Assembly: GCA_042584585.1 (NCBI GenBank)
Contig: JBHOSQ010000001.1
Coordinates: 3,508-67,507 of the forward strand
Reading direction: 5' to 3'
DNA length: 64,000 nucleotides
Source: an archaeon
GTDB lineage: Archaea > B1Sed10-29 > WALL01
Shown here: in pieces, positions 3,453 through 61,102 of the stretch
How positions within the stretch are numbered: the first letter of the stretch is position 1
How the letters are laid out: the number at the start of each line of letters is the position of its first letter
The notes under the pieces: generated by a model
Database searches by the model: none
What the model was told of the DNA's origin: nothing
What the model saw: only the letters and a program-made list of their open reading frames with translations
Made by a program: the position numbers and the translations under genes

Positions 3453-3690
3453 CGATGCACCACAACGCAGCCACTGAATAAAAGCGTTTTTATTGTTTGG
3501 CCACGAATAACTAGAGTATGTTGTTTGAGGCGGTGGCCGTCGTGCTGGGAATCACGGTGGTTTACACGTGGGTTTTGAACAAGCGGGTTGCCGCTTTGCC
3601 GGCAAACGCGAGGCGCGGCCACGCGTGGCTGAAGGACGAAGAGCTCAAGCTCCCGTAAACATTAAAAAGCGGCGTGGATTATTCAGTTGC

Positions 3691-6126
3691 ATGCGCAAAG
3701 CGCTGGTCGCAATCATTCTTTTGTGTGCCATAGCCTCGGCCACCAGCGTAAACATCACGCTCAACAAAGACAACGACACTCGGTACGAGCATCAAGAGGA
3801 CTACACCATCACGGTCACAATCGTGAACCTCGGGCCCACGAACGACACTTTCGATGTGCGGCTGGACACAGATGGGCAAGACGTCGAGGTCAATGACACG
3901 GACAGGTATGCCTACAACATCACGAACATGTCGGTCAACGCAAGCTACGCGAGAAGCGTCACGATTTATATCAATAAGTCCATGGCGTTCGACGACGAGC
4001 AGTGGTTTACTGTCGAGGTGTACAACGAGTCGGACTTAGTCGGCCAAGAGCACCTCGAAATCAATACAGTGCAATTCTCGTCGATAGTAATGGACTTTGA
4101 CTACGACCCGAACAATGCCTCGAACGCGGACGTGACGCTGACCGGAAAGAATTCGCTGGATGAGGACACGTACAGGTGGAACGCGACGTTCCACGTTTAC
4201 AACGCTAGCGGTGATTGCTACAACATCTCGACGAACACGTCGAGCACCGACCTTGACCTCGAAAACTGCACTTCGGGCGTCTACGACATAAAGGCCATAG
4301 CCACGGCAGACGAGGAATTTGTCGAGAACACGAAGATAAATGACTATTTCCTGTTCAGGTACTTGACGCTCACCGCCGACTTTTACTTATTGGAATTATT
4401 CGACTTCCAACGGCCGTTTTCCGAGGTCTCGCGCATCACAGGCGGAGACACCATAGTCATGAAAGGTGTAGCAAGGTACGACGACGGCACGGCGATTGGG
4501 TACTCGCCGGACACGTCATCGAGCCTGCTGAACCTGACGATTGAGGTGCCGAACATCACCGACCCCGTGCACACTATTACGGTGCAAAGCGACGGCACTT
4601 ATGAGTTCCGGTTCGACGCGCCGGCGAACACGAGCAACTACATCTTGTCGCTTGACGCGTACGGCTATTTGGACTACGAGAAGACGGTGGAGTACACGCT
4701 GAAGGTAAACAACACCCGGGACTACATTCCCGAGCCGGTGAACGAAAGCGAAATAATGACGAGGCTCAATATTTCACTCGGGAACCAAAGCCTTGACTTG
4801 GTCGACGGGGAGCTGGTGCTGGACGTCGCCATATCCAACGACAACCTCATCGGGATTTCGGGCAAGCCAACGCTCGTCGAGGAAGGCACCAACAAGCAGT
4901 TCGCCGTGACGGAGCCGTCGAGGGACAGCGTCAGCGGGAGGGGCTCAAGGAACTACACGCTGGGCATCAGGCCGAAGAACTATACCCGCCCGGGCGACTA
5001 CGCCCTGGATATTCAATTCAGCACTATTTACGGCAGCATCAGCAAGTCAATCCAGCTGACCGTGCCCGAGGAAGAGCTCGTGGCCGGGGAGCTTAACGTG
5101 GTTAGGTACATTGACTACAAGAGCGAGTCGCAGGTCACACTCAAGGTAGTGAACAAGCACGCGGGAGAGGCCCAGGCGCGGATTCGCGAGACAATCAGCA
5201 AAGACATAATGCCTTACATCGTCGAAATCGATAACTTGATCGCGGGGTGCGGGACGACGGACGCAACGTGCAAGCTCGGGAAAATAGTGGACAACGGCAC
5301 GTGCAGCGACTGTGACACAGTGGACTGGAACCAAACCGACTGCTTCCTCGCGTGCGGCGCCGGGAACGAAACGTGCCGCGCGAACTGCACCAGCCTGACA
5401 ACCAACTGCAGCACGGACTGCACGAACCGCACGCGGCTCACGTTTGCGCCTGCCTACGCCCGCTTGATTGAGGCGGACCCGGTGGTCGAGTGGGACGTTG
5501 ACTTGGCGGCGGGGGCGACGACGGAACTGGTGTACACCACCACGGTGCTTGTGGACGAGACTTGGTTCACGGAGCCGGTTATTGACGCGGGGCTTGAGAT
5601 AATCGCGACCCCGACGCCTGCGGCGACTCCAACGCCGACACCTGAGGCGACACCGGAGGCAAACGCGACACAGGTCACGAATGGCGAGCCCGAGCCGCCG
5701 TCCGGAATCCCCATGTGGCTGCTTGTTTTCGTGGGAATAATGTTTTTGGTGTTCGTCGGGGCTGCTGGCGGAATTGCTTATGTGTTCACCAACAAGCGAG
5801 ACCAAGTCGACGACTTTTTGGACAAGTACTTGCCGGAGAGGGAGTTGACCGAGGAAGACATTCAGCGCCGCAAAATCAGGGGCTTGTTCGTCACGGAGGA
5901 AATGACGAAGGAAGCGCCTAAACCCAAGCCTGCGCCGGAGCCCGAGGCCAAGGAGTCTATGCTTGGGCGGCTCGACAAAATGTTTTCGCCGAAGAAGAAG
6001 GAAGAGGCGCCGACGAAGTACGAGCCCAAGAAAGGGGAAGAAAAGCCCAAGAAAGAAGAGAAAAAGAAGATGCCCGATTTCAAGGAGCTAAAGGACATCG
6101 GAAAGGGCTTTGGGGACGGCTCCTAA
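3691..6126 (+). CDS. Large surface glycoprotein-like protein (signal peptide, Cys-rich block, PT linker, C-terminal TM anchor, K/E-rich cytoplasmic tail)
   Basis: Track ORF 3568..6126 trimmed to in-frame ATG 3691, 26 nt downstream of a TTAAAAA box. Signal peptide MRKALVAIILLCAIASATS; dozens of N-x-S/T sequons; CGTTDATCKLG...CSTDCTN block; ATPTPAATPTPTPEATPE linker; TM IPMWLLVFVGIMFLVFVGAAGGIAYVF. Confidence 0.8.
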   Translation: MRKALVAIILLCAIASATSVNITLNKDNDTRYEHQEDYTITVTIVNLGPTNDTFDVRLDTDGQDVEVNDTDRYAYNITNMSVNASYARSVTIYINKSMAFDDEQWFTVEVYNESDLVGQEHLEINTVQFSSIVMDFDYDPNNASNADVTLTGKNSLDEDTYRWNATFHVYNASGDCYNISTNTSSTDLDLENCTSGVYDIKAIATADEEFVENTKINDYFLFRYLTLTADFYLLELFDFQRPFSEVSRITGGDTIVMKGVARYDDGTAIGYSPDTSSSLLNLTIEVPNITDPVHTITVQSDGTYEFRFDAPANTSNYILSLDAYGYLDYEKTVEYTLKVNNTRDYIPEPVNESEIMTRLNISLGNQSLDLVDGELVLDVAISNDNLIGISGKPTLVEEGTNKQFAVTEPSRDSVSGRGSRNYTLGIRPKNYTRPGDYALDIQFSTIYGSISKSIQLTVPEEELVAGELNVVRYIDYKSESQVTLKVVNKHAGEAQARIRETISKDIMPYIVEIDNLIAGCGTTDATCKLGKIVDNGTCSDCDTVDWNQTDCFLACGAGNETCRANCTSLTTNCSTDCTNRTRLTFAPAYARLIEADPVVEWDVDLAAGATTELVYTTTVLVDETWFTEPVIDAGLEIIATPTPAATPTPTPEATPEANATQVTNGEPEPPSGIPMWLLVFVGIMFLVFVGAAGGIAYVFTNKRDQVDDFLDKYLPERELTEEDIQRRKIRGLFVTEEMTKEAPKPKPAPEPEAKESMLGRLDKMFSPKKKEEAPTKYEPKKGEEKPKKEEKKKMPDFKELKDIGKGFGDGS

Positions 6127-8463: not shown

Positions 8464-8554
8464 ACAGTTGTTGTTATGGCGCCAAAGAATTAAAAAGCCC
8501 TCGTCCCCGAGTAACGCCTTCAACCGGTAACACTAACCTGTAATAAGAATAAAG

Positions 8555-8630
8555 GGCCGCGGCCGTGATTTGAACACGGGTTAGGCGGACCACAACCACC
8601 CGTACTAGGCCAAGCTATACTACCGCAGCC
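8555..8630 (-). tRNA. tRNA-His (anticodon GTG) with genome-encoded G-1
   Basis: Manual fold: G-1, acceptor GCTGCGG/CCGCGGC, D stem GTAT/GTAC, anticodon stem GGTGG/CCGCC, loop TTGTGGT, T arm CCGTG-TTCAAAT-CACGG, discriminator C. No encoded CCA. Confidence 0.9.
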
Positions 8631-14338: not shown

Positions 14339-14366
14339 GGGGACTCCGCCAATTGGCGGAGTCCCC
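14339..14366. terminator. G-run palindromic hairpin (family member) between convergent genes
   Basis: Perfect 28-nt palindrome GGGGACTCCGCC-AATT-GGCGGAGTCCCC. A T5 run follows on the minus strand. Confidence 0.5.
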
Positions 14367-14395: not shown

Positions 14396-15076
14396 TTAGC
14401 TGACGAAGTCAGCGATTATTTCGGTTGTAATCAGCAGTGCCTTTTCGACTTCATCTTCTGAGCGAGCGCCTGTGCAAATCACTTTGCCGTTCTTGAACAA
14501 CAGCAGCGACGCCTTCACGCCATTGCCGTCCTTGGAAAGCTTCAGGATTGCTCCAGGGAATTGTTCTGGCTCGTACTCAATCGTGTCCACTTCGCGGGCG
14601 AGCGCGAACAAGTCGAGCTCTACGTTGAAGTTGGCCGAAGCGACCATGTTCACGATTTTGATGTTGTAAGGGTTATCACCAGTCGCGGGCTCTGGCGGGC
14701 GCGTCGGGACAATACGGTCGAACATGGGCCCGGTGCGCTTGACCTTCTTTTTGGCTGCCTTGCGGGGAGTTGCCTTCTTCACGGCCTTCTTCGCAGGCTT
14801 TTTCTTGACAACCTTTTTCTTGGCCACCTTTTTCTTGGTGACTTTTTTCACGGGCTTCTTCTTGATGACCTTTTTCTTCGTCACCTTCTTTTTGGTTGCC
14901 TTCTTCTTGACGGCCTTCTTTTTGACAACCTTTTTCTTGACAACCTTTCTCTTCGTTGCCTTCTTCTTGACCGTCTTCCTAGAAGTAGCCTTCTTCTTGA
15001 CTGTCTTCTTTTTCACTGCCTTGCTCTTGGTCTTTTTAGCAGCAGTTTTCCTCGCGCGTTTAACAGTTTTGGCCAT
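14396..15076 (-). CDS. Single-repeat TATA-binding-protein-like protein with ~120-aa Lys-rich N-terminal tail
   Basis: C-terminal ~90 aa [77 protein letters not shown] aligns with one TBP repeat (compare P. woesei [63 protein letters not shown]). The N-terminus is KKKxVKKK repeats. No second repeat is present. Confidence 0.85.
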   Translation of the reverse strand: [226 protein letters not shown]

Positions 15077-15095
15077 AAGCCAATCACCTCACCCC

Positions 15096-15152
15096 ATTTA
15101 TAAATGGATTCATTTATAAAGGATTCGTTTTTAAAGGATAATCCTTTTAAAG
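15096..15152. promoter_or_regulatory. Four tandem TATA-like boxes in a divergent promoter
   Basis: ATTTATAAAT (15096), ATTTATAAAG (15112), GTTTTTAAAG (15127) and CCTTTTAAAG (15143), spaced 15-16 nt apart. The first three are followed by GGAT. Box 1 is 25 nt from ATG 15076 (-); box 4 is ~27 nt from GTG 15175 (+). Confidence 0.6.
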
Positions 15153-15174
15153 CGCCACGGAAACAATACCCACG

Positions 15175-15396
15175 GTGTTTCAAATGCCCGAATTCGTTAC
15201 TATTAAGGCGGAAGAAGTCAAATACGGCAACAACTTCATGGAAGTGTCGCGCAAAAAGGTTGACGACAACGAGTTCCTCATGATATCAAAGGGATACTTT
15301 GCCCAGGACGGCTCAAAACGCTACAAGGGCGGCGTCGGCATCCCAGACCGCGATGAAGTCAAAAAGTTCCTATCGGAAAAGCTCTTACAAATGTGA
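15175..15396 (+). CDS. Small hypothetical protein, possibly PC4/YdbC-like
   Basis: 73-aa ORF (GTG 15175 or ATG 15184). YGNNFMEVSRKKVDDNEFLMISKGYFAQDGSKRYKGGVGIP weakly recalls PC4/YdbC-like ssDNA-binding proteins. Confidence 0.45.
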   Translation: MFQMPEFVTIKAEEVKYGNNFMEVSRKKVDDNEFLMISKGYFAQDGSKRYKGGVGIPDRDEVKKFLSEKLLQM

Positions 15397-16452: not shown

Positions 16453-16497
16453 GCTGGTTTTTTATTCTTTTATGGAGATTGGCTAGTGGTGAACATA

Positions 16498-18141
16498 ATG
16501 AGACGATTATTGTTGTTGCTTCTTATCTTATCCCTTGCAGCGTGCGACGGGTTCAAGCTGCCCACAGAGGTTGCTGGTGACGTGGTCGAAACGAGTCAGC
16601 TCGCAGTAATAACCCCGAGCGGCGACACCGCGGAGTACCAAATGTTTCTCGCGCTGGAGAGGTACTCTGGTGAAGAGCCTGAGCCGCGAGCGTACGGAGA
16701 AGCAGAAGTTGAAGAGATGGCGTCTGGGGAGCCCATTGCGTGGGTACTGGCGCTGCGGGAAAAAGCCAGTTACATGGAAAGCGACGAGGCAACGCTGCCC
16801 GACTTCAAGGACGCAACTGGGATAAGCTTGGTTGAGGACGCAATTAAAGCCGACAAAAAGTACATGGAACAGTCCGATGACCATCTCGGAAACCTGATGC
16901 TTGCCGCGGGCTTAACGTACATGATGCCATTTGGCGCCGCCGCGCCACTGGGGCTGTACTTCTGGGTTGGGGGCCTCGCCACGAGGCAGCCAACAGCCAG
17001 TGGCCCAATAGAGGAATATGAAGTCGCGAGGGGCCACGTCGAGGTCTACAATGTCACAGAGTCGAACATGGGCGCATTGTTTGATAAGTACGGTTTAAGC
17101 GAAAGCGTGAAGCAACAATTTATGGACTACGGCCAAATGTACCTCTACGTGTTCACGCTCCAGCCCTTCGAGCGCGAGGGGAAGGAAGTGTACGACTTGC
17201 TCAAGGAAGGGTGTGACGACCCAGACGGCGCGATGGAGCTGCTGCAGAAGGACTTGATAACAGAACGCGAGTGGGACGCGCTTGGGTGTACAATACCGCT
17301 TAGTAGCCATGACTGGCACCGCCGCTGGGAATACGAAGGCCTATCAGTGGAAAGCCTTAGGGAGCGCCTAGAGAACACGGAAGGCATCTCATTGAAGTTC
17401 GACCAGGCGGCTGGAGAGGACGGGTTCTGGTACCCGCTTGGCACCGGACAGTTCTGGGAAAAGCCAATAGCAATGACGGGCGTGTACGTGTTCCCGCCCG
17501 AAGGCACTGCAGTAGATGGAATGCAAAGAGTGCGGATAGAAGACGGGGACGCGTTCATGGCCGAGTACATTGGCTCGAACCCATCTGAAGACTTGCTTGT
17601 AAAAGTCACGCCGAAAGGAATTGGTGCACAAGCTGCAGACATTGTGCGCCCTGCAACAGCGTTCCTCCTTGACACTGTGCCCTACCTAGTGTGGGTTGTG
17701 CCTCTGGCATCCTGCATCTTTGGGGCATGGGCACTTCTCGTGTTCTGGCAAAAGAAAGAAAAGATGGTGGCGCTGAAAGCAGCCGCAGGAATGTGGCTTG
17801 GCTTGGACGCGTCTGGGCTGGCTATGGGCTTTGTAGTTGCAGTGATCTTGTTCGCTGCAGTATGGACGAGCTATGAAGTTGGTGCAATCGGGATGGTGGC
17901 AGCACCAGTCATTGCGCTCATTGGGATAGTGGCTTCTGTGGCAGTCAGCATCGCGGCATCAGAACACTTGTTTTACTCCGCGCTTGGCGAAAAGCAGGGA
18001 ATCATCGAAATACTGAAAAAGCACGAAATAAAGTGGCTTTACTGGAAGGTGCTGATTGGCTCCCTCATGATTTCGCTGATGCTGTCAACACTGTTTTACG
18101 TGAAGTTAATAGTCCTGATGTCGCTGTACTACGCGCTTTAA
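16498..18141 (+). CDS. Hypothetical lipoprotein-like membrane protein
   Basis: MRRLLLLLLILSLAACDG (lipobox), a large soluble domain, then 4-5 C-terminal TM segments. The track start is GTG 16486. Confidence 0.7.
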   Translation: MRRLLLLLLILSLAACDGFKLPTEVAGDVVETSQLAVITPSGDTAEYQMFLALERYSGEEPEPRAYGEAEVEEMASGEPIAWVLALREKASYMESDEATLPDFKDATGISLVEDAIKADKKYMEQSDDHLGNLMLAAGLTYMMPFGAAAPLGLYFWVGGLATRQPTASGPIEEYEVARGHVEVYNVTESNMGALFDKYGLSESVKQQFMDYGQMYLYVFTLQPFEREGKEVYDLLKEGCDDPDGAMELLQKDLITEREWDALGCTIPLSSHDWHRRWEYEGLSVESLRERLENTEGISLKFDQAAGEDGFWYPLGTGQFWEKPIAMTGVYVFPPEGTAVDGMQRVRIEDGDAFMAEYIGSNPSEDLLVKVTPKGIGAQAADIVRPATAFLLDTVPYLVWVVPLASCIFGAWALLVFWQKKEKMVALKAAAGMWLGLDASGLAMGFVVAVILFAAVWTSYEVGAIGMVAAPVIALIGIVASVAVSIAASEHLFYSALGEKQGIIEILKKHEIKWLYWKVLIGSLMISLMLSTLFYVKLIVLMSLYYAL

Positions 18142-46927: not shown

Positions 46928-47041
46928 TGGGCGTGCCGAGATTTGAACTCGGGACCTCCGGTTGTCTCCGGCTCGCGGCCGAATGTCTGGAACGCTGCCA
47001 TATAAGACCGGCGCTCTGAAACCAGGCTAAGCTACACGCCC
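46928..47041 (-). tRNA. tRNA-Ile (anticodon TAT) with a 37-nt intron at the canonical 37/38 position
   Basis: Manual fold: acceptor GGGCGTG/CACGCCC, A73, D stem GCTT/GAGC, anticodon stem CCGGT/ACCGG, spliced loop CTTATAA, T arm CCGAG-TTCAAAT-CTCGG. Intron at 46964..47000 has 3-nt bulges flanking a central helix (CUU/GAG) plus an inner GGC/GCC helix. CTTTTTAAAAAC box lies 30 nt upstream. Confidence 0.8.
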
Positions 47042-56270: not shown

Positions 56271-57923
56271 CTAGTCCATGTCGTCTATTCTCTTTAGCTT
56301 GAGAGCGGGACGCAACTTCTTCCCAGCCAACAACTTTTCCAATTCTTTTTCAGTGGGTGGGCGAATCTCTTCCCGCAACTTACGCCCCAATCTCGAGGAA
56401 GTGTACAACCCCTTCTTTGCTTTCTTGAAGTAGCCCTTATTCGTGTGGTGTTCGACAAGAATACGCAGAGCCTTAAGAGGGGACATACCTGCTTTGTTTG
56501 CCACGTGCATGTACGGAAGCGGCTTCTCGTCCATGAAAGATAATAACAGCTCTGCCTCGTCCTGTGGCAGCCGGCGCGTCTGTAGTTCTTTCAGCTCTTC
56601 CGCAGCCTTGAGGTCTGCCTCCAACTTCTGGGCCAGTTCTTCCGCCAGTTTTTTCTCTGCCGCGAGCTTCTCCCTCGCAGCCGCTTTCTCTGTTTTAAGC
56701 TTCTCCACCTCAGCCTTCTTCGCAGCCCTAATTTGTTCCTTCTTCAACTTCTCTGCCGCTTTAAGCTTCTGCTTTTCAGCTTTCTCCGCAACCTTAAGCG
56801 CTTGCTTCGCCAACCTATCCCCCATCCTGATGGCCTTGGCCTTCCCTTTCACAGCCTTCGCCTCTGCCTTGAGGAGCAACTCTTCCAGCCTCGCTTCAGA
56901 CTTGGTTTTTTCCTTGACTCGGTTCTTGTTGTAGTCCACAGCAGCCTTGAATCGCTTTGCATACCTCTCGTCCATGCCCTCAATCACTCGCGTGACTACC
57001 TGGAGTGACTCACCAACCCGCCTACCCAAAAACGTGACGGGGATGCCATCTTTGCGAGTAACCAACTTCGAATCCCACCCCCCAACAGAAAGTTCGTTCG
57101 CCAAGACGCGCAAATAATCCTCGAGCCGATCTGCTTTGATTTGCCTCAGCTTCTTCTCGTGCAGTGCGTTGTTTTTCGCGATGACTTTTGCAAACTCTTT
57201 TTTGTAATCGTCGTCCGCCAAGTCAAACACGTCAGAAATGTTTCCCTTAGCCATGTCAAACTCTTCGGAAAGAGGTTGGAGTGGGAAACCATCCTCGCGC
57301 GGAGTCGTGCCCGGATTCCAACCCCCCTTACTGACTTCTTTCTTCAAGTGAACAAGGAACTTGTCCAGCTTCTCGCGAGTCTTGGGCGTAAGCTCCCGAG
57401 CAAGACCCTTTATCTTCTTTAGTTCCCCAGGAGTCGGCAAAACCGCTTGGCGCTTAAGGCCGTGCGCAGTCACGTAATACAGCTTCCCCGTTTTCCTGAC
57501 GACCGACTTCTTGGAAATCTTTATGTGGCGAATAACCGTAGAGCTGGCAGTGGCGTACCCCCGCTTGGAAAAATAGTTGCCCGCTTCCGTGAGGAGGTCC
57601 TGCAAATTGTAGCCCTTGCCTTTTTCCATGAACGGCAGGATTTCTTCCGCAGGGCCGCGGGGATACTCCTTGTCACCAAGCTGAGTGTGAATATCGAGAT
57701 TGCGCTTGCCTTTTGGCGTAAACGTGTGCACGCCTTTCTCGACGACCAAGTCACCGTTCACCTTCATGTTGTCAATGGCGATATCAATCTTTTTGGCGGC
57801 CTCGGCGTCACGCTCAGCCACCCACGCCTTAATCTCTTTTCGCTTGAAAGCCGGAGAAATCTTTCCGTACTCGTACACCAGCCGCCGTGGACTGTGCTTG
57901 CCAACCGTTTTTTCGCCTTTCAT
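56271..57923 (-). CDS. K/E-rich hypothetical protein with winged-helix-like modules (paralogous to parts of the 1060-aa neighbour)
   Basis: 550 aa. Its ATG overlaps the upstream stop (ATGA). The N-terminal block LVYEYGK...IKAWVAERDA...GVHTFTPKGKRNL...LGDKEYP...MEKGKGYNLQDLL...GKLYYVTAHG parallels KIYEFGR...IRWIKQRDA...SVYTFTEKGKRRIL...LGKKRVP...MAEGKGYSNRWLL...GRFYYLNERG in the 1060-aa protein. Two internal GGW...DG(F/I)P repeats. AEKxKK coiled-coil stretch. Confidence 0.7.
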   Translation of the reverse strand: MKGEKTVGKHSPRRLVYEYGKISPAFKRKEIKAWVAERDAEAAKKIDIAIDNMKVNGDLVVEKGVHTFTPKGKRNLDIHTQLGDKEYPRGPAEEILPFMEKGKGYNLQDLLTEAGNYFSKRGYATASSTVIRHIKISKKSVVRKTGKLYYVTAHGLKRQAVLPTPGELKKIKGLARELTPKTREKLDKFLVHLKKEVSKGGWNPGTTPREDGFPLQPLSEEFDMAKGNISDVFDLADDDYKKEFAKVIAKNNALHEKKLRQIKADRLEDYLRVLANELSVGGWDSKLVTRKDGIPVTFLGRRVGESLQVVTRVIEGMDERYAKRFKAAVDYNKNRVKEKTKSEARLEELLLKAEAKAVKGKAKAIRMGDRLAKQALKVAEKAEKQKLKAAEKLKKEQIRAAKKAEVEKLKTEKAAAREKLAAEKKLAEELAQKLEADLKAAEELKELQTRRLPQDEAELLLSFMDEKPLPYMHVANKAGMSPLKALRILVEHHTNKGYFKKAKKGLYTSSRLGRKLREEIRPPTEKELEKLLAGKKLRPALKLKRIDDMD

Positions 57924-60900
57924 TTCTTCGCCTTCTTTTTTGTTTCTTTCTTAATGGCTTCTTTTGCTAGTCTTACTGCGTCAGCTTCCCCACAGTGAGC
58001 CGTGGCTTTTATGAAGCCAGTCAGTGAGAGTACGGCTTTACTGGGGCTTTGCTTGAGGAAGTAACGGGCCTGAACGTCGATGTTGTACTGGACTCCGGGC
58101 GACAAGTCCTTCAGCGAAAGGAGTGGGAGGGCCTTCCCGAATTCCGCCCTGTCCGGCTTGTCCTCATCCGCAAAGTCGTCGCGAGGGGGTCTCTTCTTGT
58201 CTTCCTCTTCTTTCTGCCTCGCCTTCATCTCCGCCCAGAGGTCTTCTTCTGTAGGCCCTCCTTCTTCAACCGTGGCCTCGACCAACGGCTTTTCTATCAC
58301 AACCCCTCTTTCGGCAAGTTGGGCTTGCGCGTTAGCCACAACTTTGTCGGCGGCCGCTTTGTTGGAGCTAGTGTAAAACGTGTACAATTTGCGCCGCAGC
58401 TTGTTCAGCCCGGCAACAGTGGGATTCCCCCCAAGGAACTTCAAAGCCAATTCCTCAACTTCGGGCATCAGCAAAGCCCGGTTGTGCAGGATCAGCCGTT
58501 CATCAACGACAAACCGCATGTTTCCCTTCTTGAATCCAGCTCGGAGCCGCTCAAGGAGTTCTTCCTCGGAAGTGCTGATGAATTCCTTCCTCGATGCGGC
58601 GGGGCGCTCAACCGGCTCGCCCAAAATCTCTTTTATCTCCCACGGCGAGGCAACAGACTTCTGGCACTCAATGCCCCGCTCATTCAAGTAATAAAAACGC
58701 CCTTTCTTCTTGAACAAAGACGTGCGGCCCCCCGCATAGCCGCCAATCAAATTCAGGAATTTCGGGAAACCCTCCTCCTCGTTTTTGAATTTCTTGGCCT
58801 CTTCTGTATAGTGCTTGAGCAAGTTCTCCAAAAGCCATCGGTTTGAATAGCCCTTCCCCTCCGCCATCAACAACGCGACTTTTTCGGAGAAGGTCTCGGG
58901 AACCCGCTTCTTGCCGAGGCGCTCGTGAAGCAGTATCCTGCGCTTGCCTTTTTCAGTGAAGGTATACACGGAACCAACCTTGGACTTGGACAGCTCTCCT
59001 GTTTTTCCAACCATTGTCTGGAGGTTATGAGTGACCGTGCCGTCGCCGAAAGTCGCGTCACGCTGTTTTATCCACCGTATTAACTCAAACGGCCGGAAAG
59101 GCAGTTTGTGGGTGCGGCCGAACTCGTAAATCTTTTGCGGGGTAGGCCACAAGTTGAAATGGAGTGGCGCGCTGACGTCGGTGAGCCCCTTCATTAGTTT
59201 CGCTTCTTTATTGGCTTTTTTCGCTGCCGCGGCCTTCACCTTCTCCACCCGTTGTTTCTCCCGCTCTTCGTCACTCATCTGTTTTTCCAAGCGCTCCTGT
59301 TCCAGGGCCTTCTGTCTCTCCGCCCGGTCCTTCTGCCTCGCCAGCTCCTGTTCCGCCTTCTCCACTTCCTTCTCCGCTTTTTTCCTTGCCTGTATTTTTT
59401 CGTTCGCGTCCGCCGCCAGGTTAAAGCGGTCCCATTGCTCCGGCGACATAGTAGACAAGTAGTCCGTGAGCGTTTTGGTAGCCCTGCCCTTTTTCCTCGA
59501 CAAAAACGAAAGCGGAAGACGGTCGGCACGCGGCTTCGAGGCAATCTCCCATCCATCGCCACTCGCCGAGTCCTCTATGTAACCAAGCACATCCTCCACA
59601 AACTCTGCGATTTCCTTTTGCTTCGCCAGAAGCTTCTGCCGCTTCGCCTCTTGCTTGCGGAGGGCGGCTTGCTGCTTCTCAAACTCCCTCTGCGCCTCGA
59701 TCTCCTGGCGCTTCTTTTCTTTCTCGGCGAGCTTCCTCGCTTCTTCTGCCAGCTTATACTCCCGTTTTTGCCTGGCGCGCTCCTCCCTTTCTTTCCTGAG
59801 CCGCTCCGTTCTCTCCTGCTTTCTTTGCTGTTTACGCTTCTCCGCCATTAAGCGCCTGGTCTCGGCCCCCCTCCGCTTCTCTTCTTCGGCCGTCTTCTTG
59901 GCCAATTGGCGCTTAACATCGTCCGCTGCCTTTTTCCGCAGCTCTTCTTCCAGCAGCTCTTTCTCCCATTGCTTAATCCTTTTCTGGTTCTCCAGCCTAT
60001 GGCGCTCCCGCTGCTTGTCCCAATTGTCTTCTCCCGCCATCCACTCCTCCTCGCCAAACGGGGCTTCATCAAAAATTTCCAGGAGCTTAGATGACACGTA
60101 CGGACGCAACTGGTCCCTCTCCCTCATGGTCAGCCCGGAAACCCCTTTCTTGAACGACACGTTGTAATCCGCTTCGGTTGGGTCGAGGCGCGAAATAAGC
60201 TTAATCCGCACATAAGGGTTGAGCAGCGGCAGCACAGCAAGGCCACGCCGCAAACCCCCCAATGCTGCCATTTTTACAAAAGCCCCTGCGTCAAGATTGA
60301 ATTTATCGGCAATCGTCCTGTCGTCGCTGCTTACTTTCTCCCGCTTTTGGAGCAGCGGCCGGTCAAGCGGAAAATACCGGTAACGCTTGACAACCCCGGA
60401 CTCCGAGTCTTCCTCCAAGCCCCACTGCCTGCGGATTGTCTTGATGTCTTCCTGGAGGCCTTTGTCAAAGTCCTCGAAGCGGGAGTACTTCGGGTTGAAA
60501 AGTTGGTAAAGCGTGCGGTAGTTGATGCCCGTGTACTCTTCCGCGAGCTTCAGCAAGTAACGGTAGCTGACCCGCTGGGGAGAGTTGCCGAACACCCTGA
60601 GGTGCAAGTTGTGCAAGTCCTCGCCAATGTCCTCAGGGCCCTTGACGCGCTTAATCACGCGAACCGCGTTTTGAATGCTCCTGACCTCGTACTTGGCCGG
60701 CTTGGTCTTGATTAGCTTGTCCGAAAACCCACCCACGCGAAGCGTGTCATGAAGGCCCTTAAGGTCCGGAAGCGCCGCCTCAAGGGCATTTTTTTTCGAG
60801 CCAAAAACCCTGAGCGCGCTCCCCATCCCAAAATCATGGAAATGCTGTTGGGTAATTTCACTTACCTGCAGGCCCTTGTCCCGCACAAGCTTCCCCACAA

Positions 60901-61102
60901 GCATGCGCACCGCCGTCTTTCTCTGGTCGTCGTGCGTCCAGAAGCCGTCCGGAAGGTCCGCTACCTCCCGCTCAGTTTTCTCCCCGGCCTTCGTCTTGAG
61001 GTAGTCCTTAATCAGTGGCCGCAGCTCGTCTGGGTGGACCTTAGGGAACTTAAAGCCTTCGGGGCGGCCGCGCTTGGGCCCCTCAGTGGGTTCCTTAGGC
61101 AT
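57920..61102 (-). CDS. Giant (1060 aa) K/E/R-rich hypothetical protein with coiled-coil stretches and winged-helix-like modules
   Basis: Long uninterrupted ORF. Contains ~130 aa of charged heptad-like sequence (EKRKQQRKQERTERLRKEREERARQKREYKLAEEARKLAEKEKKRQEIEAQREFEKQQAALRKQEAKRQK). Shares modules with the 550-aa protein. No signal peptide, TM or P-loop seen. Leaderless ATG 61102 lies ~27 nt from TCTTTATATACC. Confidence 0.75.
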   Translation of the reverse strand: MPKEPTEGPKRGRPEGFKFPKVHPDELRPLIKDYLKTKAGEKTEREVADLPDGFWTHDDQRKTAVRMLVGKLVRDKGLQVSEITQQHFHDFGMGSALRVFGSKKNALEAALPDLKGLHDTLRVGGFSDKLIKTKPAKYEVRSIQNAVRVIKRVKGPEDIGEDLHNLHLRVFGNSPQRVSYRYLLKLAEEYTGINYRTLYQLFNPKYSRFEDFDKGLQEDIKTIRRQWGLEEDSESGVVKRYRYFPLDRPLLQKREKVSSDDRTIADKFNLDAGAFVKMAALGGLRRGLAVLPLLNPYVRIKLISRLDPTEADYNVSFKKGVSGLTMRERDQLRPYVSSKLLEIFDEAPFGEEEWMAGEDNWDKQRERHRLENQKRIKQWEKELLEEELRKKAADDVKRQLAKKTAEEEKRRGAETRRLMAEKRKQQRKQERTERLRKEREERARQKREYKLAEEARKLAEKEKKRQEIEAQREFEKQQAALRKQEAKRQKLLAKQKEIAEFVEDVLGYIEDSASGDGWEIASKPRADRLPLSFLSRKKGRATKTLTDYLSTMSPEQWDRFNLAADANEKIQARKKAEKEVEKAEQELARQKDRAERQKALEQERLEKQMSDEEREKQRVEKVKAAAAKKANKEAKLMKGLTDVSAPLHFNLWPTPQKIYEFGRTHKLPFRPFELIRWIKQRDATFGDGTVTHNLQTMVGKTGELSKSKVGSVYTFTEKGKRRILLHERLGKKRVPETFSEKVALLMAEGKGYSNRWLLENLLKHYTEEAKKFKNEEEGFPKFLNLIGGYAGGRTSLFKKKGRFYYLNERGIECQKSVASPWEIKEILGEPVERPAASRKEFISTSEEELLERLRAGFKKGNMRFVVDERLILHNRALLMPEVEELALKFLGGNPTVAGLNKLRRKLYTFYTSSNKAAADKVVANAQAQLAERGVVIEKPLVEATVEEGGPTEEDLWAEMKARQKEEEDKKRPPRDDFADEDKPDRAEFGKALPLLSLKDLSPGVQYNIDVQARYFLKQSPSKAVLSLTGFIKATAHCGEADAVRLAKEAIKKETKKKAKK

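What the first reader, a model, noticed from the sequence alone, without database searches (positions are those of the whole stretch)
14396..15076. TBP homolog with a single TBP repeat fused to a ~120-aa histone-H1-like lysine tail
Canonical archaeal and eukaryotic TBP is a pseudo-dimer of two ~90-aa repeats. This ORF has one clear repeat ([10 protein letters not shown]...[14 protein letters not shown]...[24 protein letters not shown]). It is preceded by ~110 residues of KKKxVKKK repeats and a Pro-rich linker.

A monomeric half-TBP would have to homodimerise to form the saddle. The poly-Lys tail would add non-specific DNA affinity.

It could be the cell's general TBP in a reduced genome, a TBP paralog with chromatin-like function, or a living example of the proposed single-repeat TBP ancestor.
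Basis: partly seen in the sequence, partly recalled or inferred. Interest (0 to 1): 0.7.

Follow-up and report, generated by a model that had tools for sequence, protein, structure and literature searches.

The report
Lysine-tailed half-TBP paralogue in DPANN archaeon
This is a real, conserved archaeal gene for half of a TATA-binding protein carrying a very long lysine-rich tail; it is a second copy beside an untailed half-TBP, and it led to the finding that one-repeat TBPs occupy the main TBP gene position in most related genomes sampled here, which the searchable literature does not describe.

Summary
Window 14396-15076 (-) encodes 226 aa: a 117-aa disordered tail (54% K+R, no acidic residues), a 20-aa Pro-rich linker and one complete TBP repeat.

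It is not an artefact. Independent assemblies hold orthologues with the same layout, including tails just as long, and the domain has dN/dS 0.02-0.1.

The interpretation needs revising:
- One-repeat TBP genes are common in Micrarchaeota/Iainarchaeota: 58 of the 80 best GTDB loci.
- They and the two-repeat genes sit at the same KsgA-DUF655-RpoF-L21e locus, so they are positional orthologues of the main TBP gene.
- The window's protein belongs to a separate paralogue lineage (T1) that never lies at that locus.
- T1 coexists with an untailed half-TBP (T2) in 4 of 5 T1-bearing MAGs, including WALL01, a Lys-tailed relative.
- Basic tails on TBPs recur in several lineages; this one is the longest N-terminal tail found.

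Best reading: an accessory half-TBP that dimerises, with itself or with T2, to form the saddle, while the tail adds non-specific DNA affinity. It is probably not the sole TBP, and nothing here shows it is an ancestral relic. Dimerisation and DNA binding are inferred, not shown.

The parts
14396..15076 (-). Complete CDS, 226 aa plus stop: Lys-tailed single-repeat TBP paralogue (T1 lineage)
   Evidence: ORF. Orthologues with the same architecture. Conserved synteny.
14726..15076 (-). Residues 1-117: intrinsically disordered Lys-rich tail (57 K, 6 R, 0 D/E; about 5-aa period xVKKK)
   Evidence: Composition. AF2 gives no secondary structure and block-mean pLDDT about 41-66. Pfam HC2 and NCBIfam H1-like hits fall well below their cut-offs, so the resemblance is compositional only. 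Tail length is 50-119 aa in orthologues but always 43-54% K+R.
14774..15022 (.). Degenerate 15/30/60-nt tandem repeat in the tail-coding DNA
   Evidence: TRF: period 15 x 17 copies (65% matches), period 60 x 3.1 copies (77% matches). An N-gap interrupts this same region in the scaffolded assembly L003. Expansion and contraction of the repeat is the likely source of tail-length variation (inference).
14666..14725 (-). Residues 118-137: Pro-rich linker [20 protein letters not shown], the signature of the tailed subfamily
   Evidence: Conserved as [ML]F[DE]xI.[10 protein letters not shown][DG]NPY in P0009, P0012, P0014, L004, L084 and P0251 (more divergent in P0013). Absent from tail-less T1 proteins, which start M(V)ENKYN.
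14399..14665 (-). Residues 138-226: one complete TBP repeat (S1-H1-S2-S3-S4-S5-H2)
   Evidence: PF00352, 80.8 bits. AF2 block-mean pLDDT 86-97. Foldseek rmsd 1.3-1.6 A over 84-88 columns to one repeat of solved TBPs. N143, V145, F173 and F194 plus the E167-Y-E-P-E-Q-F-P-G stirrup are invariant in alignment A1; T202 is retained. dN/dS 0.02-0.1.
15077..15174 (.). Divergent promoter region shared with the 73-aa ORF. TATA-like boxes at 15097-15104 and 15113-15120 (both palindromic TTTATAAA) and 15128-15135 (TTTTTAAA); 15-nt repeat CATTTATAAAGGATT x2.9
   Evidence: 4 TTTATAAA in the window against 0.44 expected, two of them here. Paired boxes also lie upstream of the orthologue in L003 and of tail-less T1 in L005. 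That two opposed promoters are being served is inferred.
15083..15093 (-). Shine-Dalgarno-like GGTGAGGTGAT, 7-17 nt upstream of the ATG
   Evidence: Read directly from the sequence. A similar GAGGGCGAGGTG lies upstream of the L003 orthologue. Function inferred.
14339..14366 (.). Perfect 12-bp-stem palindromic hairpin between the convergent stop codons, followed by CUUUUUC on the TBP transcript: terminator-like element
   Evidence: RNA fold -31.2 kcal/mol, z = -6.4 against shuffles. Function inferred.

Best explanation
The gene encodes an accessory half-TBP of an Iainarchaeota-related DPANN archaeon.

Shown:
- One intact, strongly constrained TBP repeat keeps the residues that contact and kink TATA DNA and the acidic stirrup that binds TFB in canonical TBPs.
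- It is preceded by a 117-aa disordered tail of 54% K+R, encoded by degenerate 15-nt repeats.
- It belongs to paralogue lineage T1, which sits at its own locus (MscS / 73-aa ORF neighbourhood) and not at the conserved KsgA-DUF655-RpoF-L21e locus.
- In the related tailed MAG WALL01 an untailed 89-aa half-TBP (T2) occupies that locus.

Inferred:
- Two half-saddles must pair to form the 10-stranded DNA-binding saddle. T1 therefore acts as a homodimer, as a heterodimer with T2, or both. Two genes could give up to three saddle species.
- The tail or tails bind flanking DNA electrostatically and without sequence preference, much as a linker-histone C-terminal domain does. This would raise the affinity and residence time of an otherwise transient archaeal TBP-DNA complex, or tether the factor to the nucleoid.
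- The tail probably grew from the short basic N-terminal segment that most one-repeat TBPs in this group carry, by repeat expansion.
For: Architecture and integrity:
-.

Independent orthologues with the same layout:
- P0009, P0012, P0013, L004, L084 (228 aa) and P0251 (223 aa).
- Synteny is conserved, and the TBP domain is the best-conserved protein locally: 84.5% identity against 49-80% for neighbours.

Selection:
- Domain dN/dS is 0.02-0.1.
- Tail dN/dS is about 0.14, with K+R held at 43-54% over lengths of 50-119 aa.

Functional residues:
- Invariant N143, V145, F173, F194 and the EYEPEQFPG stirrup.

Paralogue status:
- T1 is 0 of 5 at the RpoF-L21e cluster, against 47 of 50 other one-repeat and 19 of 20 two-repeat genes.

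Coexistence with T2:
- JAUVIW01 (L005 + L009) and JAGGYF01 (L006 + L016).
- JAIOSL01 (locus tags K8R43_02165 and K8R43_02730).
- WALL01: tailed T1 on contig 27 and T2 on contig 11. GC is 50.9 vs 51.8% and tetranucleotide r is 0.85-0.90, against 0.29-0.40 for other T2 contigs of the same sample.

Context:
- Ordinary TATA boxes precede the window's genes.
- Basic tails recur on other TBPs: P0177/P0178, P0189-type, P0325, P0255, P0279, L082.
- Archaeal TBP-DNA complexes are short-lived, and one may lean on TFB to bend DNA (PMC5501381).
Against:
- T2 was not found for the window's own genome. The 64-kb window lacks the RpoF-L21e cluster, so coexistence rests on a related MAG and on bracketing by sister lineages. 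MAG binning can also be wrong.
- No expression data are available.
- DNA binding by the tail is inferred from composition alone.
- T1 could have lost TBP function in ways that conserved residues do not reveal.
Confidence: 0.6

Rival explanations
1. It is the organism's only, general TBP: a homodimer replaces the canonical two-repeat protein, and the tail compensates for a reduced set of chromatin or initiation factors.
For: - All DNA- and TFB-contact residues are kept, and purifying selection is very strong.
- No other TBP lies in the 64-kb window.
- The window's genes use TATA boxes.
- In most related genomes sampled, a one-repeat gene occupies the TBP locus, so homodimeric TBPs are plausible in this group.
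Against: - T1 genes never occupy the conserved TBP locus.
- The tailed relative in MAG WALL01 has an untailed T2 at that locus, with matching GC and tetranucleotide composition.
- Three tail-less T1 MAGs also carry T2.
Confidence: 0.15
2. It is mainly a nucleoid or chromatin architectural protein. The TBP fold serves as a DNA-bending module and the tail as a compaction or bridging module, with no role in recruiting TFB or RNA polymerase.
For: - The tail matches linker-histone C-terminal domains in size and charge. About +62 per chain would mean about +124 per dimer.
- It shows weak compositional hits to Hc2 and H1-like models.
- It is an extra copy beside T2.
- T1-specific substitutions lie in S1, H1 and H2, away from the DNA-contact residues and stirrup, so partner specificity may differ.
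Against: - The TFB-binding stirrup EYEPEQFPG is fully conserved, which a pure architectural protein would not need.
- Tail-less T1 proteins exist and are equally constrained, so the T1 function predates the tail.
- The H1/Hc2 models score far below their cut-offs.
Confidence: 0.2
3. It is a surviving example of the pre-duplication, single-repeat ancestor of all TBPs.
For: - The repeat matches N- and C-repeats of canonical TBPs equally well.
- All Micrarchaeota/Iainarchaeota repeats form one clade apart from the reference N and C repeats.
- Single-repeat ancestry of TBP is an established hypothesis (PMC3597702).
Against: - Two-repeat TBP is standard across Archaea and Eukarya (PMC3597702 abstract), so a derived collapse is more parsimonious (inference).
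- Within this clade N and C repeats are 48-81% identical, against 42-55% in references, which points to recent collapse, re-duplication or gene conversion rather than ancient retention.
- T1 is a lineage-restricted paralogue, and the tail is restricted to one T1 sublineage.
- An 85-aa alignment cannot resolve the deep branching.
Confidence: 0.03
4. It is an artefact: a truncated or frameshifted two-repeat TBP, or a mis-assembly joining low-complexity DNA to half a gene.
For: The tail-coding DNA is repetitive, and one scaffolded assembly has an N-gap there.
Against: - At least seven independent sequences share the architecture. Stop codons fall directly after the repeat, and a conserved convergent gene lies downstream.
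- dN/dS is 0.02-0.1.
- No TBP-like sequence lies in other frames or nearby.
Confidence: 0.01

Closest known systems
Canonical archaeal TBP (e.g. M. jannaschii 2Z8U, S. acidocaldarius 1MP9, P. woesei 1PCZ/1AIS)
   Same: - Same Pfam domain and same fold: rmsd about 1.4-1.8 A per repeat.
- About 38-49% identity to either repeat over the repeat alignment.
- The intercalating Phe pair, minor-groove Asn/Thr and acidic stirrup are all present.
   Different: - One repeat per chain instead of two.
- Scores reach only 48-74 bits against NCBIfam TBP cut-offs of 181-347.
- A 137-aa basic N-terminal extension is present.
- The gene is not at the conserved RpoF-L21e locus.
Halobacterium TbpA-type monopartite TBP-domain proteins (Brindefalk et al. 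2013, PMC3597702)
   Same: - A single TBP domain whose sequence is close to bona fide TBP repeats.
- It coexists with other TBP genes, so it is an accessory copy.
   Different: - Different phylum.
- No basic tail is reported for TbpA.
- Here the partner gene (T2) is itself a half-TBP rather than a full two-repeat TBP.
Thermococcales monopartite TBP-domain proteins of about 95 aa (Brindefalk et al. 2013)
   Same: Stand-alone single TBP-fold proteins in archaea.
   Different: Those are highly diverged from TBP, with only weak local similarity. This repeat is about 38-49% identical to canonical repeats and keeps all the functional motifs.
Untailed one-repeat TBPs of Micrarchaeota/Iainarchaeota at the RpoF-L21e locus (T2, T3 and others; defined here, not found in the searchable literature)
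   Same: - Same clade of repeats, 58-68% identical.
- Same one-repeat architecture.
- Most carry a short basic N-terminal segment of 10-25 aa.
   Different: - Those are positional orthologues of the main TBP gene.
- The window's gene is a paralogue elsewhere in the genome, with a tail 5-10 times longer.
Linker histone H1 C-terminal domain; bacterial H1-like proteins (Chlamydia Hc2, Burkholderia H1-like)
   Same: A long, disordered segment rich in Lys, Ala, Val, Thr and Pro, with short-period repeats and weak compositional model hits. The presumed mode of action is charge neutralisation of DNA (background knowledge plus inference).
   Different: - Scores are far below family cut-offs: 16.4 vs 40 bits and 23.7 vs 80 bits.
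- No winged-helix globular domain.
- No evidence of common descent.

Membership tests
TBP domain (Pfam PF00352) | Sequence match above the Pfam gathering score | tested here: met
   80.8 bits against 22.9, model positions 1-84 of 85, residues 138-223.
TBP domain (Pfam PF00352) | Helix-grip alpha/beta fold of one TBP repeat (S1-H1-S2-S3-S4-S5-H2) | tested here: met
   AF2 domain block-mean pLDDT 86-97 with that order of elements. Foldseek top 44 hits are all TBPs, rmsd 1.0-1.9 A over 81-90 columns.
Canonical TATA-box-binding protein (general transcription factor) | Two tandem repeats in one chain forming the saddle | tested here: not met
   One repeat only. NCBIfam TBP models score 48-74 bits against cut-offs of 181-347.
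Canonical TATA-box-binding protein (general transcription factor) | DNA-kinking Phe pair and minor-groove Asn/Val/Thr contacts conserved | tested here: met
   N143, V145, F173 and F194 are invariant in alignment A1, and T202 is retained in all T1 and T2 sequences. Their role is assigned by homology to solved TBP-DNA complexes (background knowledge).
Canonical TATA-box-binding protein (general transcription factor) | Acidic stirrup that binds TFB/TFIIB (E-x-E-P-E-[QL]) | tested here: met
   E167-Y-E-P-E-Q-F-P-G is invariant. Actual TFB binding was not tested.
Canonical TATA-box-binding protein (general transcription factor) | Gene at the lineage's conserved TBP locus (KsgA-DUF655-RpoF-L21e in Micrarchaeota/Iainarchaeota) | tested here: not met
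   0 of 5 informative T1 loci, against 47 of 50 one-repeat and 19 of 20 two-repeat TBP genes. The window has no such cluster.
Canonical TATA-box-binding protein (general transcription factor) | Binds and bends TATA DNA and supports initiation with TFB and RNAP | not testable with these tools
   Needs biochemistry.
Monopartite TBP-domain proteins (Brindefalk 2013), TbpA-like class | Stand-alone single TBP domain that clusters with genuine TBP repeats and coexists with other TBP genes | tested here: met
   Single domain. About 38-49% identity to canonical repeats and about 55-70% to Micrarchaeota TBPs. Coexists with T2 in a related MAG. Common descent with halobacterial TbpA was not tested.
Monopartite TBP-domain proteins (Brindefalk 2013), Thermococcales class | Highly diverged from the TBP of the same genome (only weak local similarity) | tested here: not met
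   T1 and T2 of the same MAG are 65-68% identical.
Histone H1-like / Hc2 nucleoproteins | Match above family cut-off (Pfam PF07382 HC2; NCBIfam NF038053) | tested here: not met
   16.4 bits against 40, and 23.7 bits against 80. The resemblance is compositional only.
Histone H1-like / Hc2 nucleoproteins | Non-specific DNA binding and compaction by the Lys-rich segment | not testable with these tools
   Inferred from 54% K+R, no acidic residues, predicted disorder and composition-preserving evolution.

The most novel reading that the evidence does not exclude
Micrarchaeota and Iainarchaeota initiate transcription with dimeric half-TBPs: homodimers, or two-gene T1/T2 combinations. These would be natural equivalents of the postulated pre-duplication TBP. 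The tandem duplication has been lost and regained several times within the group. The Lys-tailed T1 would then be a TBP and linker-histone hybrid that couples TATA recognition to charge-driven DNA tethering or compaction.
Probability: 0.35. Interest if true: 0.85.

Novelty: new variant of a known kind. Interest (0 to 1): 0.68.

Why it matters
TBP's internal two-fold symmetry has long been read as the trace of an ancient duplication of a homodimeric ancestor. The stand-alone TBP-domain proteins described so far are either dispensable extra copies (Halobacterium TbpA) or highly diverged (Thermococcales).

In this group, by contrast, one-repeat proteins with fully canonical functional residues occupy the main TBP locus in most genomes sampled. 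Some genomes carry two different halves, and several lineages appear to have re-formed tandem repeats. That gives natural material for several tests:
- whether a symmetric homodimeric TBP supports directional initiation, with TFB-BRE contacts alone setting orientation;
- how heterodimerisation creates asymmetry;
- how duplication and fusion proceed.

The Lys-tailed paralogue adds a separate question. Charge-rich disordered tails have been attached to the same DNA-bending factor repeatedly, at either end. This suggests selection for longer DNA residence or nucleoid tethering in small-genome DPANN archaea.

For annotation, current pipelines label these genes 'hypothetical protein', 'partial TBP' or full 'TFIID TBP'.

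Tried and rejected
- **Second, degenerate repeat in the tail.** Rejected: Pfam, a clade HMM and AF2 all show none.
- **Frameshift or assembly artefact.** Rejected by the orthologues. The 105-aa call P0014 looked tail-less, but that came from an N-gap inside the repetitive tail DNA.
- **Exact-protein look-up.** Not on record.
- **Short linker-centred homology query.** It returned only 9 tail-less T1 proteins and, unexpectedly, none of the known tailed ones. It helped define T1 but not count the tailed family.
- **Absence from the top-80 GTDB list as evidence that T2 is absent.** Rejected once the T2 of JAIOSL01 proved to exist outside that list.
- **T2 of the tailed lineage among JGI hits.** P0135, P0136, P0139 and P0144 came from unrelated samples. 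P0162 and P0176 came from the right sample but from other MAGs with 40-44% GC. P0159 finally matched WALL01.
- **N and C repeats as reciprocal nearest neighbours.** Supported only for L011 (bootstrap 0.74). Other cases indicate older, subclade-level duplications, so 'repeated re-duplication' stays suggestive.
- **Autoregulation through multiple TATA boxes.** Considered, but two divergent promoters explain the boxes more simply.
- **Palindromic TATA as a genome-wide match to a symmetric TBP.** Not supported: most promoters here read TTTATA(T/C)A.
- **Identity of the 73-aa neighbour.** No Pfam, NCBIfam or PDB sequence hit, and only non-significant PC4/Pur-alpha-like fold matches.
- **Literature.** Eight searches found no description of DPANN one-repeat or Lys-tailed TBPs. 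Subscription-only papers are not covered.
Full report
**1. The observation**

Window 14396-15076 (minus strand) is an intact ATG-to-TAA ORF of 226 aa. Pfam finds exactly one TBP repeat, PF00352: residues 138-223, model positions 1-84 of 85, E 6.4e-23, 80.8 bits against a cut-off of 22.9. NCBIfam's full-length TBP models score only 48-74 bits against cut-offs of 181-347. They align the repeat to their N-half or their C-half about equally often.

Residues 1-117 contain 57 Lys and 6 Arg with no Asp or Glu, in a roughly five-residue period. Residues 118-137 ([20 protein letters not shown]) form a Pro-rich linker. Over residues 1-137 the net charge is +62; the domain is -5. The tail-coding DNA is a degenerate 15/30/60-nt tandem repeat.

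Nothing suggests a cryptic second repeat. A clade-specific HMM finds one domain. AlphaFold2 predicts no secondary structure before residue 119, with block-mean pLDDT of about 41-66 over residues 1-120. The domain is modelled at block-mean pLDDT 86-97. It superimposes on a single repeat of solved TBPs at 1.3-1.6 A over 84-88 columns, with TM-score normalised to the target of about 0.44, which is half a saddle. The 64-kb window has no other TBP-like sequence.

**2. It is a real, conserved gene**

Relatives with the same three-part layout come from independent assemblies:
- P0009 (187 aa), P0012 (165 aa, on ENA and JGI contigs L001/L002) and P0013 (177 aa);
- L004 on NCBI MAG contig WALL01000027 (155 aa);
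- L084 from JGI Ga0233415 (228 aa, 119-aa tail);
- P0251 (223 aa).

P0014 (105 aa) looked tail-less, but only because an N-gap falls inside the repetitive tail DNA of that scaffold.

Gene order is conserved in the closest loci: MscS channel, then (where present) a 73-aa ORF, then the TBP gene, then a convergent lipoprotein-like gene, near pyrimidine-biosynthesis genes. The TBP domain is the best-conserved protein in the neighbourhood, at 84.5% identity against 49-80% for the neighbours.

Pairwise dN/dS for the domain is 0.02-0.1. The tail evolves faster (about 0.14 for window vs L084) and varies from 50 to 119 aa, yet it always stays 43-54% K+R with at most one acidic residue. That is the signature of selection on composition, not on sequence.

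The gene has TATA boxes and a Shine-Dalgarno-like GGTGAGGTGAT upstream. A strong hairpin followed by a U-run lies downstream.

**3. Host and promoters**

The nearest genome records are MAGs labelled Nanobdellati (the DPANN kingdom), Candidatus Iainarchaeum or Candidatus Diapherotrites. The window carries aminoacyl-tRNA synthetase and pyrimidine genes, many ORFans and a likely intron-containing tRNA. Its genes are preceded by ordinary archaeal (C/T)TTTATA(T/C)A boxes about 25-30 nt upstream of the start codons. The organism therefore uses TBP-dependent promoters.

**4. One-repeat TBPs are the rule in this group**

Among the best 80 loci, 58 encode a one-repeat ORF of 89-129 aa and 21 encode a two-repeat ORF. 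One more is a two-repeat gene interrupted by an in-frame stop. No one-repeat locus has a second TBP-like ORF within the fetched flanks of up to 10 kb.

Apart from T1, almost all of these genes lie 0.1-2 kb from a conserved cluster, KsgA(RrnaAD)-DUF655-RpoF(Rpb4)-L21e:
- 47 of 50 informative one-repeat genes;
- 19 of 20 informative two-repeat genes.

One- and two-repeat genes are therefore positional orthologues of the same, presumably principal, TBP gene. No MAG in the list carries both kinds. The list is truncated, though, so this is only suggestive.

In a neighbour-joining tree, all repeats of the group (single, N and C) form one clade apart from the N and C repeats of M. jannaschii, S. acidocaldarius and P. 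woesei. N and C repeats of the group's two-repeat proteins are 48-81% identical, against 42-55% in those references. In several subclades the N clade and C clade are sisters, and in one protein N and C are reciprocal nearest neighbours (bootstrap 0.74). This pattern fits collapse and re-duplication, or gene conversion, within the group. An 85-residue alignment cannot prove that.

Eight literature searches found no description of any of this. The known monopartite TBP-domain proteins are Halobacterium TbpA, which is TBP-like and non-essential, and a diverged Thermococcales family (PMC3597702).

**5. The window's gene is a paralogue**

It falls in a clade called T1 here. The other T1 members are tail-less proteins of about 90 aa from Iainarchaeota MAGs (L005-L008, P0121-P0129).

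T1 genes are never at the RpoF-L21e cluster: 0 of 5 loci with at least 3 kb of flank. That locus holds a different one-repeat gene, T2 (about 89 aa, untailed, 65-68% identical to T1).

T1 and T2 coexist in four MAGs:
- JAUVIW01 (L005 + L009) and JAGGYF01 (L006 + L016);
- JAIOSL01 (locus tags K8R43_02165 and K8R43_02730);
- WALL01, which matters most. Contig 27 carries a Lys-tailed T1 (L004) and contig 11 carries T2 (P0159) in the canonical context.

Both WALL01 contigs also occur in ENA sample ERZ23495671. They share GC content (50.9 and 51.8%) and tetranucleotide usage (r 0.85-0.90). Other T2 contigs from that sample have 40-44% GC and r 0.29-0.40.

So 4 of the 5 T1-bearing GTDB genomes have T2, including a member of the tailed subfamily. 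The window itself lacks the RpoF-L21e cluster, so T2 could not be checked in this exact genome.

The tail is confined to one T1 sublineage. L005 shares the window's four-residue loop insertion but has no tail-coding DNA upstream.

**6. Basic tails recur**

Most one-repeat TBPs of the group begin with a short basic segment of 10-25 aa, such as MPKKKKHKRIN. It resembles the basic inter-repeat linker of the two-repeat proteins.

Longer tails arose several times and at either end:
- N-terminal, about 30-65 aa (P0177, P0178, P0188, P0256, L064, L080);
- C-terminal, about 40 aa (the P0189/P0197/P0200/P0223 group);
- C-terminal, about 95 aa on a one-repeat protein (P0325);
- on two-repeat proteins (L082, P0255, P0253, P0279).

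The window's family has the longest N-terminal tails found. Hits to Hc2 and H1-like models are far below their cut-offs, so the resemblance to linker histones is one of composition, not ancestry.

**7. Mechanism**

Shown:
- The repeat keeps the residues that in solved complexes insert into and read the TATA minor groove: N143, V145, F173, F194 and T202.
- It keeps the acidic stirrup E167-Y-E-P-E-Q-F-P-G, which binds TFB/TFIIB.
- T1-specific substitutions lie in strand S1 and helices H1 and H2, and spare those DNA-contact and stirrup residues.

Inferred:
- A single repeat is half a saddle, so function requires pairing, either T1:T1 or T1:T2. With two genes, up to three saddle species are possible. 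A T1:T2 pair would restore the asymmetry of a canonical TBP and carry one tail.
- A homodimer would present two identical TFB-competent stirrups, leaving orientation to TFB-BRE contacts. This is plausible because archaeal TBPs are already nearly symmetric (background knowledge).
- Each tail carries about 63 positive charges and could neutralise about 30 bp of flanking DNA. Archaeal TBP-DNA complexes are short-lived, and the S. acidocaldarius one may lean on TFB for bending (PMC5501381). Extra electrostatic contacts would lengthen residence, aid one-dimensional search, or tether the factor to the nucleoid.

Whether the protein is mainly an initiation factor variant or mainly an architectural protein cannot be decided here.

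**8. Verdict**

The protein is a new variant of a known kind: monopartite TBP-domain proteins. One-repeat TBPs occupy the housekeeping TBP locus across Micrarchaeota and Iainarchaeota, sometimes as two-gene sets, and often carry basic tails. That makes the homodimeric-ancestor hypothesis for TBP experimentally approachable with natural proteins.

The main caveats are MAG-based linkage, no multimer modelling, no biochemistry, a distance tree on a short alignment, and a literature search limited to open-access text.

Noticed in passing
window 15175-15396 (+): A 73-aa ORF is transcribed divergently from the TBP gene and shares its TATA-rich intergenic region. It is 85% identical in L003/L004 and 59% in L006, where it also neighbours a tail-less T1 gene. 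It has no Pfam, NCBIfam or PDB sequence hit. A single-sequence AF2 model (pLDDT 72, only 1 of 5 models confident) gives four beta-strands and a C-terminal helix. The top Foldseek hits are Pur-alpha and PC4/Sub1 homologues, but none is significant (E 0.2-2, TM 0.35-0.45). It may be a small nucleic-acid-binding partner.
   Followed up: partly
L009, L012, L016, L086, L087, L091, L094, L096, L099, L102, L103 and most of L010-L083: A conserved gene cluster, KsgA(RrnaAD)-DUF655-RpoF(Rpb4)-L21e, lies next to the main TBP gene in Micrarchaeota and Iainarchaeota. In Iainarchaeota a membrane-like ORF of about 110 aa sits between the cluster and the TBP gene. The cluster holds whether the TBP gene has one repeat or two.
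   Followed up: yes
L068 9950-10582 (JAZDMN010000049.1): A two-repeat TBP gene is interrupted by a single in-frame stop between the repeats, leaving adjacent ORFs of 131 and 79 aa in the same frame. It could be a sequencing error, a pseudogene, or a snapshot of fission into two half-genes.
   Followed up: no
P0252 (272 aa); P0261 (317 aa): P0252 has three tandem TBP repeats. P0261 has two repeats separated by an insertion of about 150 aa. Both are unusual TBP architectures that turned up in the exhaustive search.
   Followed up: no
L057 (JAADDC010000025.1, Ca. Iainarchaeum): This two-repeat protein has an N repeat that groups with the T1 paralogue clade and a divergent C repeat (N-C identity 0.48). 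It is not at the RpoF-L21e cluster. It may be a T1-derived fusion.
   Followed up: no
window 46928-47041 (-): Rfam tRNA hit of 114 nt (56.6 bits) that ARAGORN did not call, most likely an intron-containing archaeal tRNA. Conversely, ARAGORN's tRNA-His at 8554-8629 (-) was not reported by Rfam at the gathering threshold.
   Followed up: no
window 14339-14366: A perfect 28-nt palindrome (12-bp stem, AAUU loop; -31 kcal/mol, z = -6.4) lies between the convergent TBP and lipoprotein-like genes. It is a candidate bidirectional terminator or protein-binding site.
   Followed up: partly
window 3568-6126 (+), 56271-57923 (-), 57920-61102 (-), 16486-18141 (+): Several large ORFs (550-1060 aa) have no Pfam match at all. 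This is typical of DPANN genomes, and they were not characterised further.
   Followed up: no
L093 3013-3222, L095 1332-1541 (sister MAG WAME01 and the same study's metagenome): A histone-fold gene (PF00125/PF00808, 69 aa) lies about 1-2 kb from the T2 half-TBP gene in a related 42% GC population. These lineages therefore do encode histones, which bears on any chromatin-substitute idea for the Lys tail.
   Followed up: no
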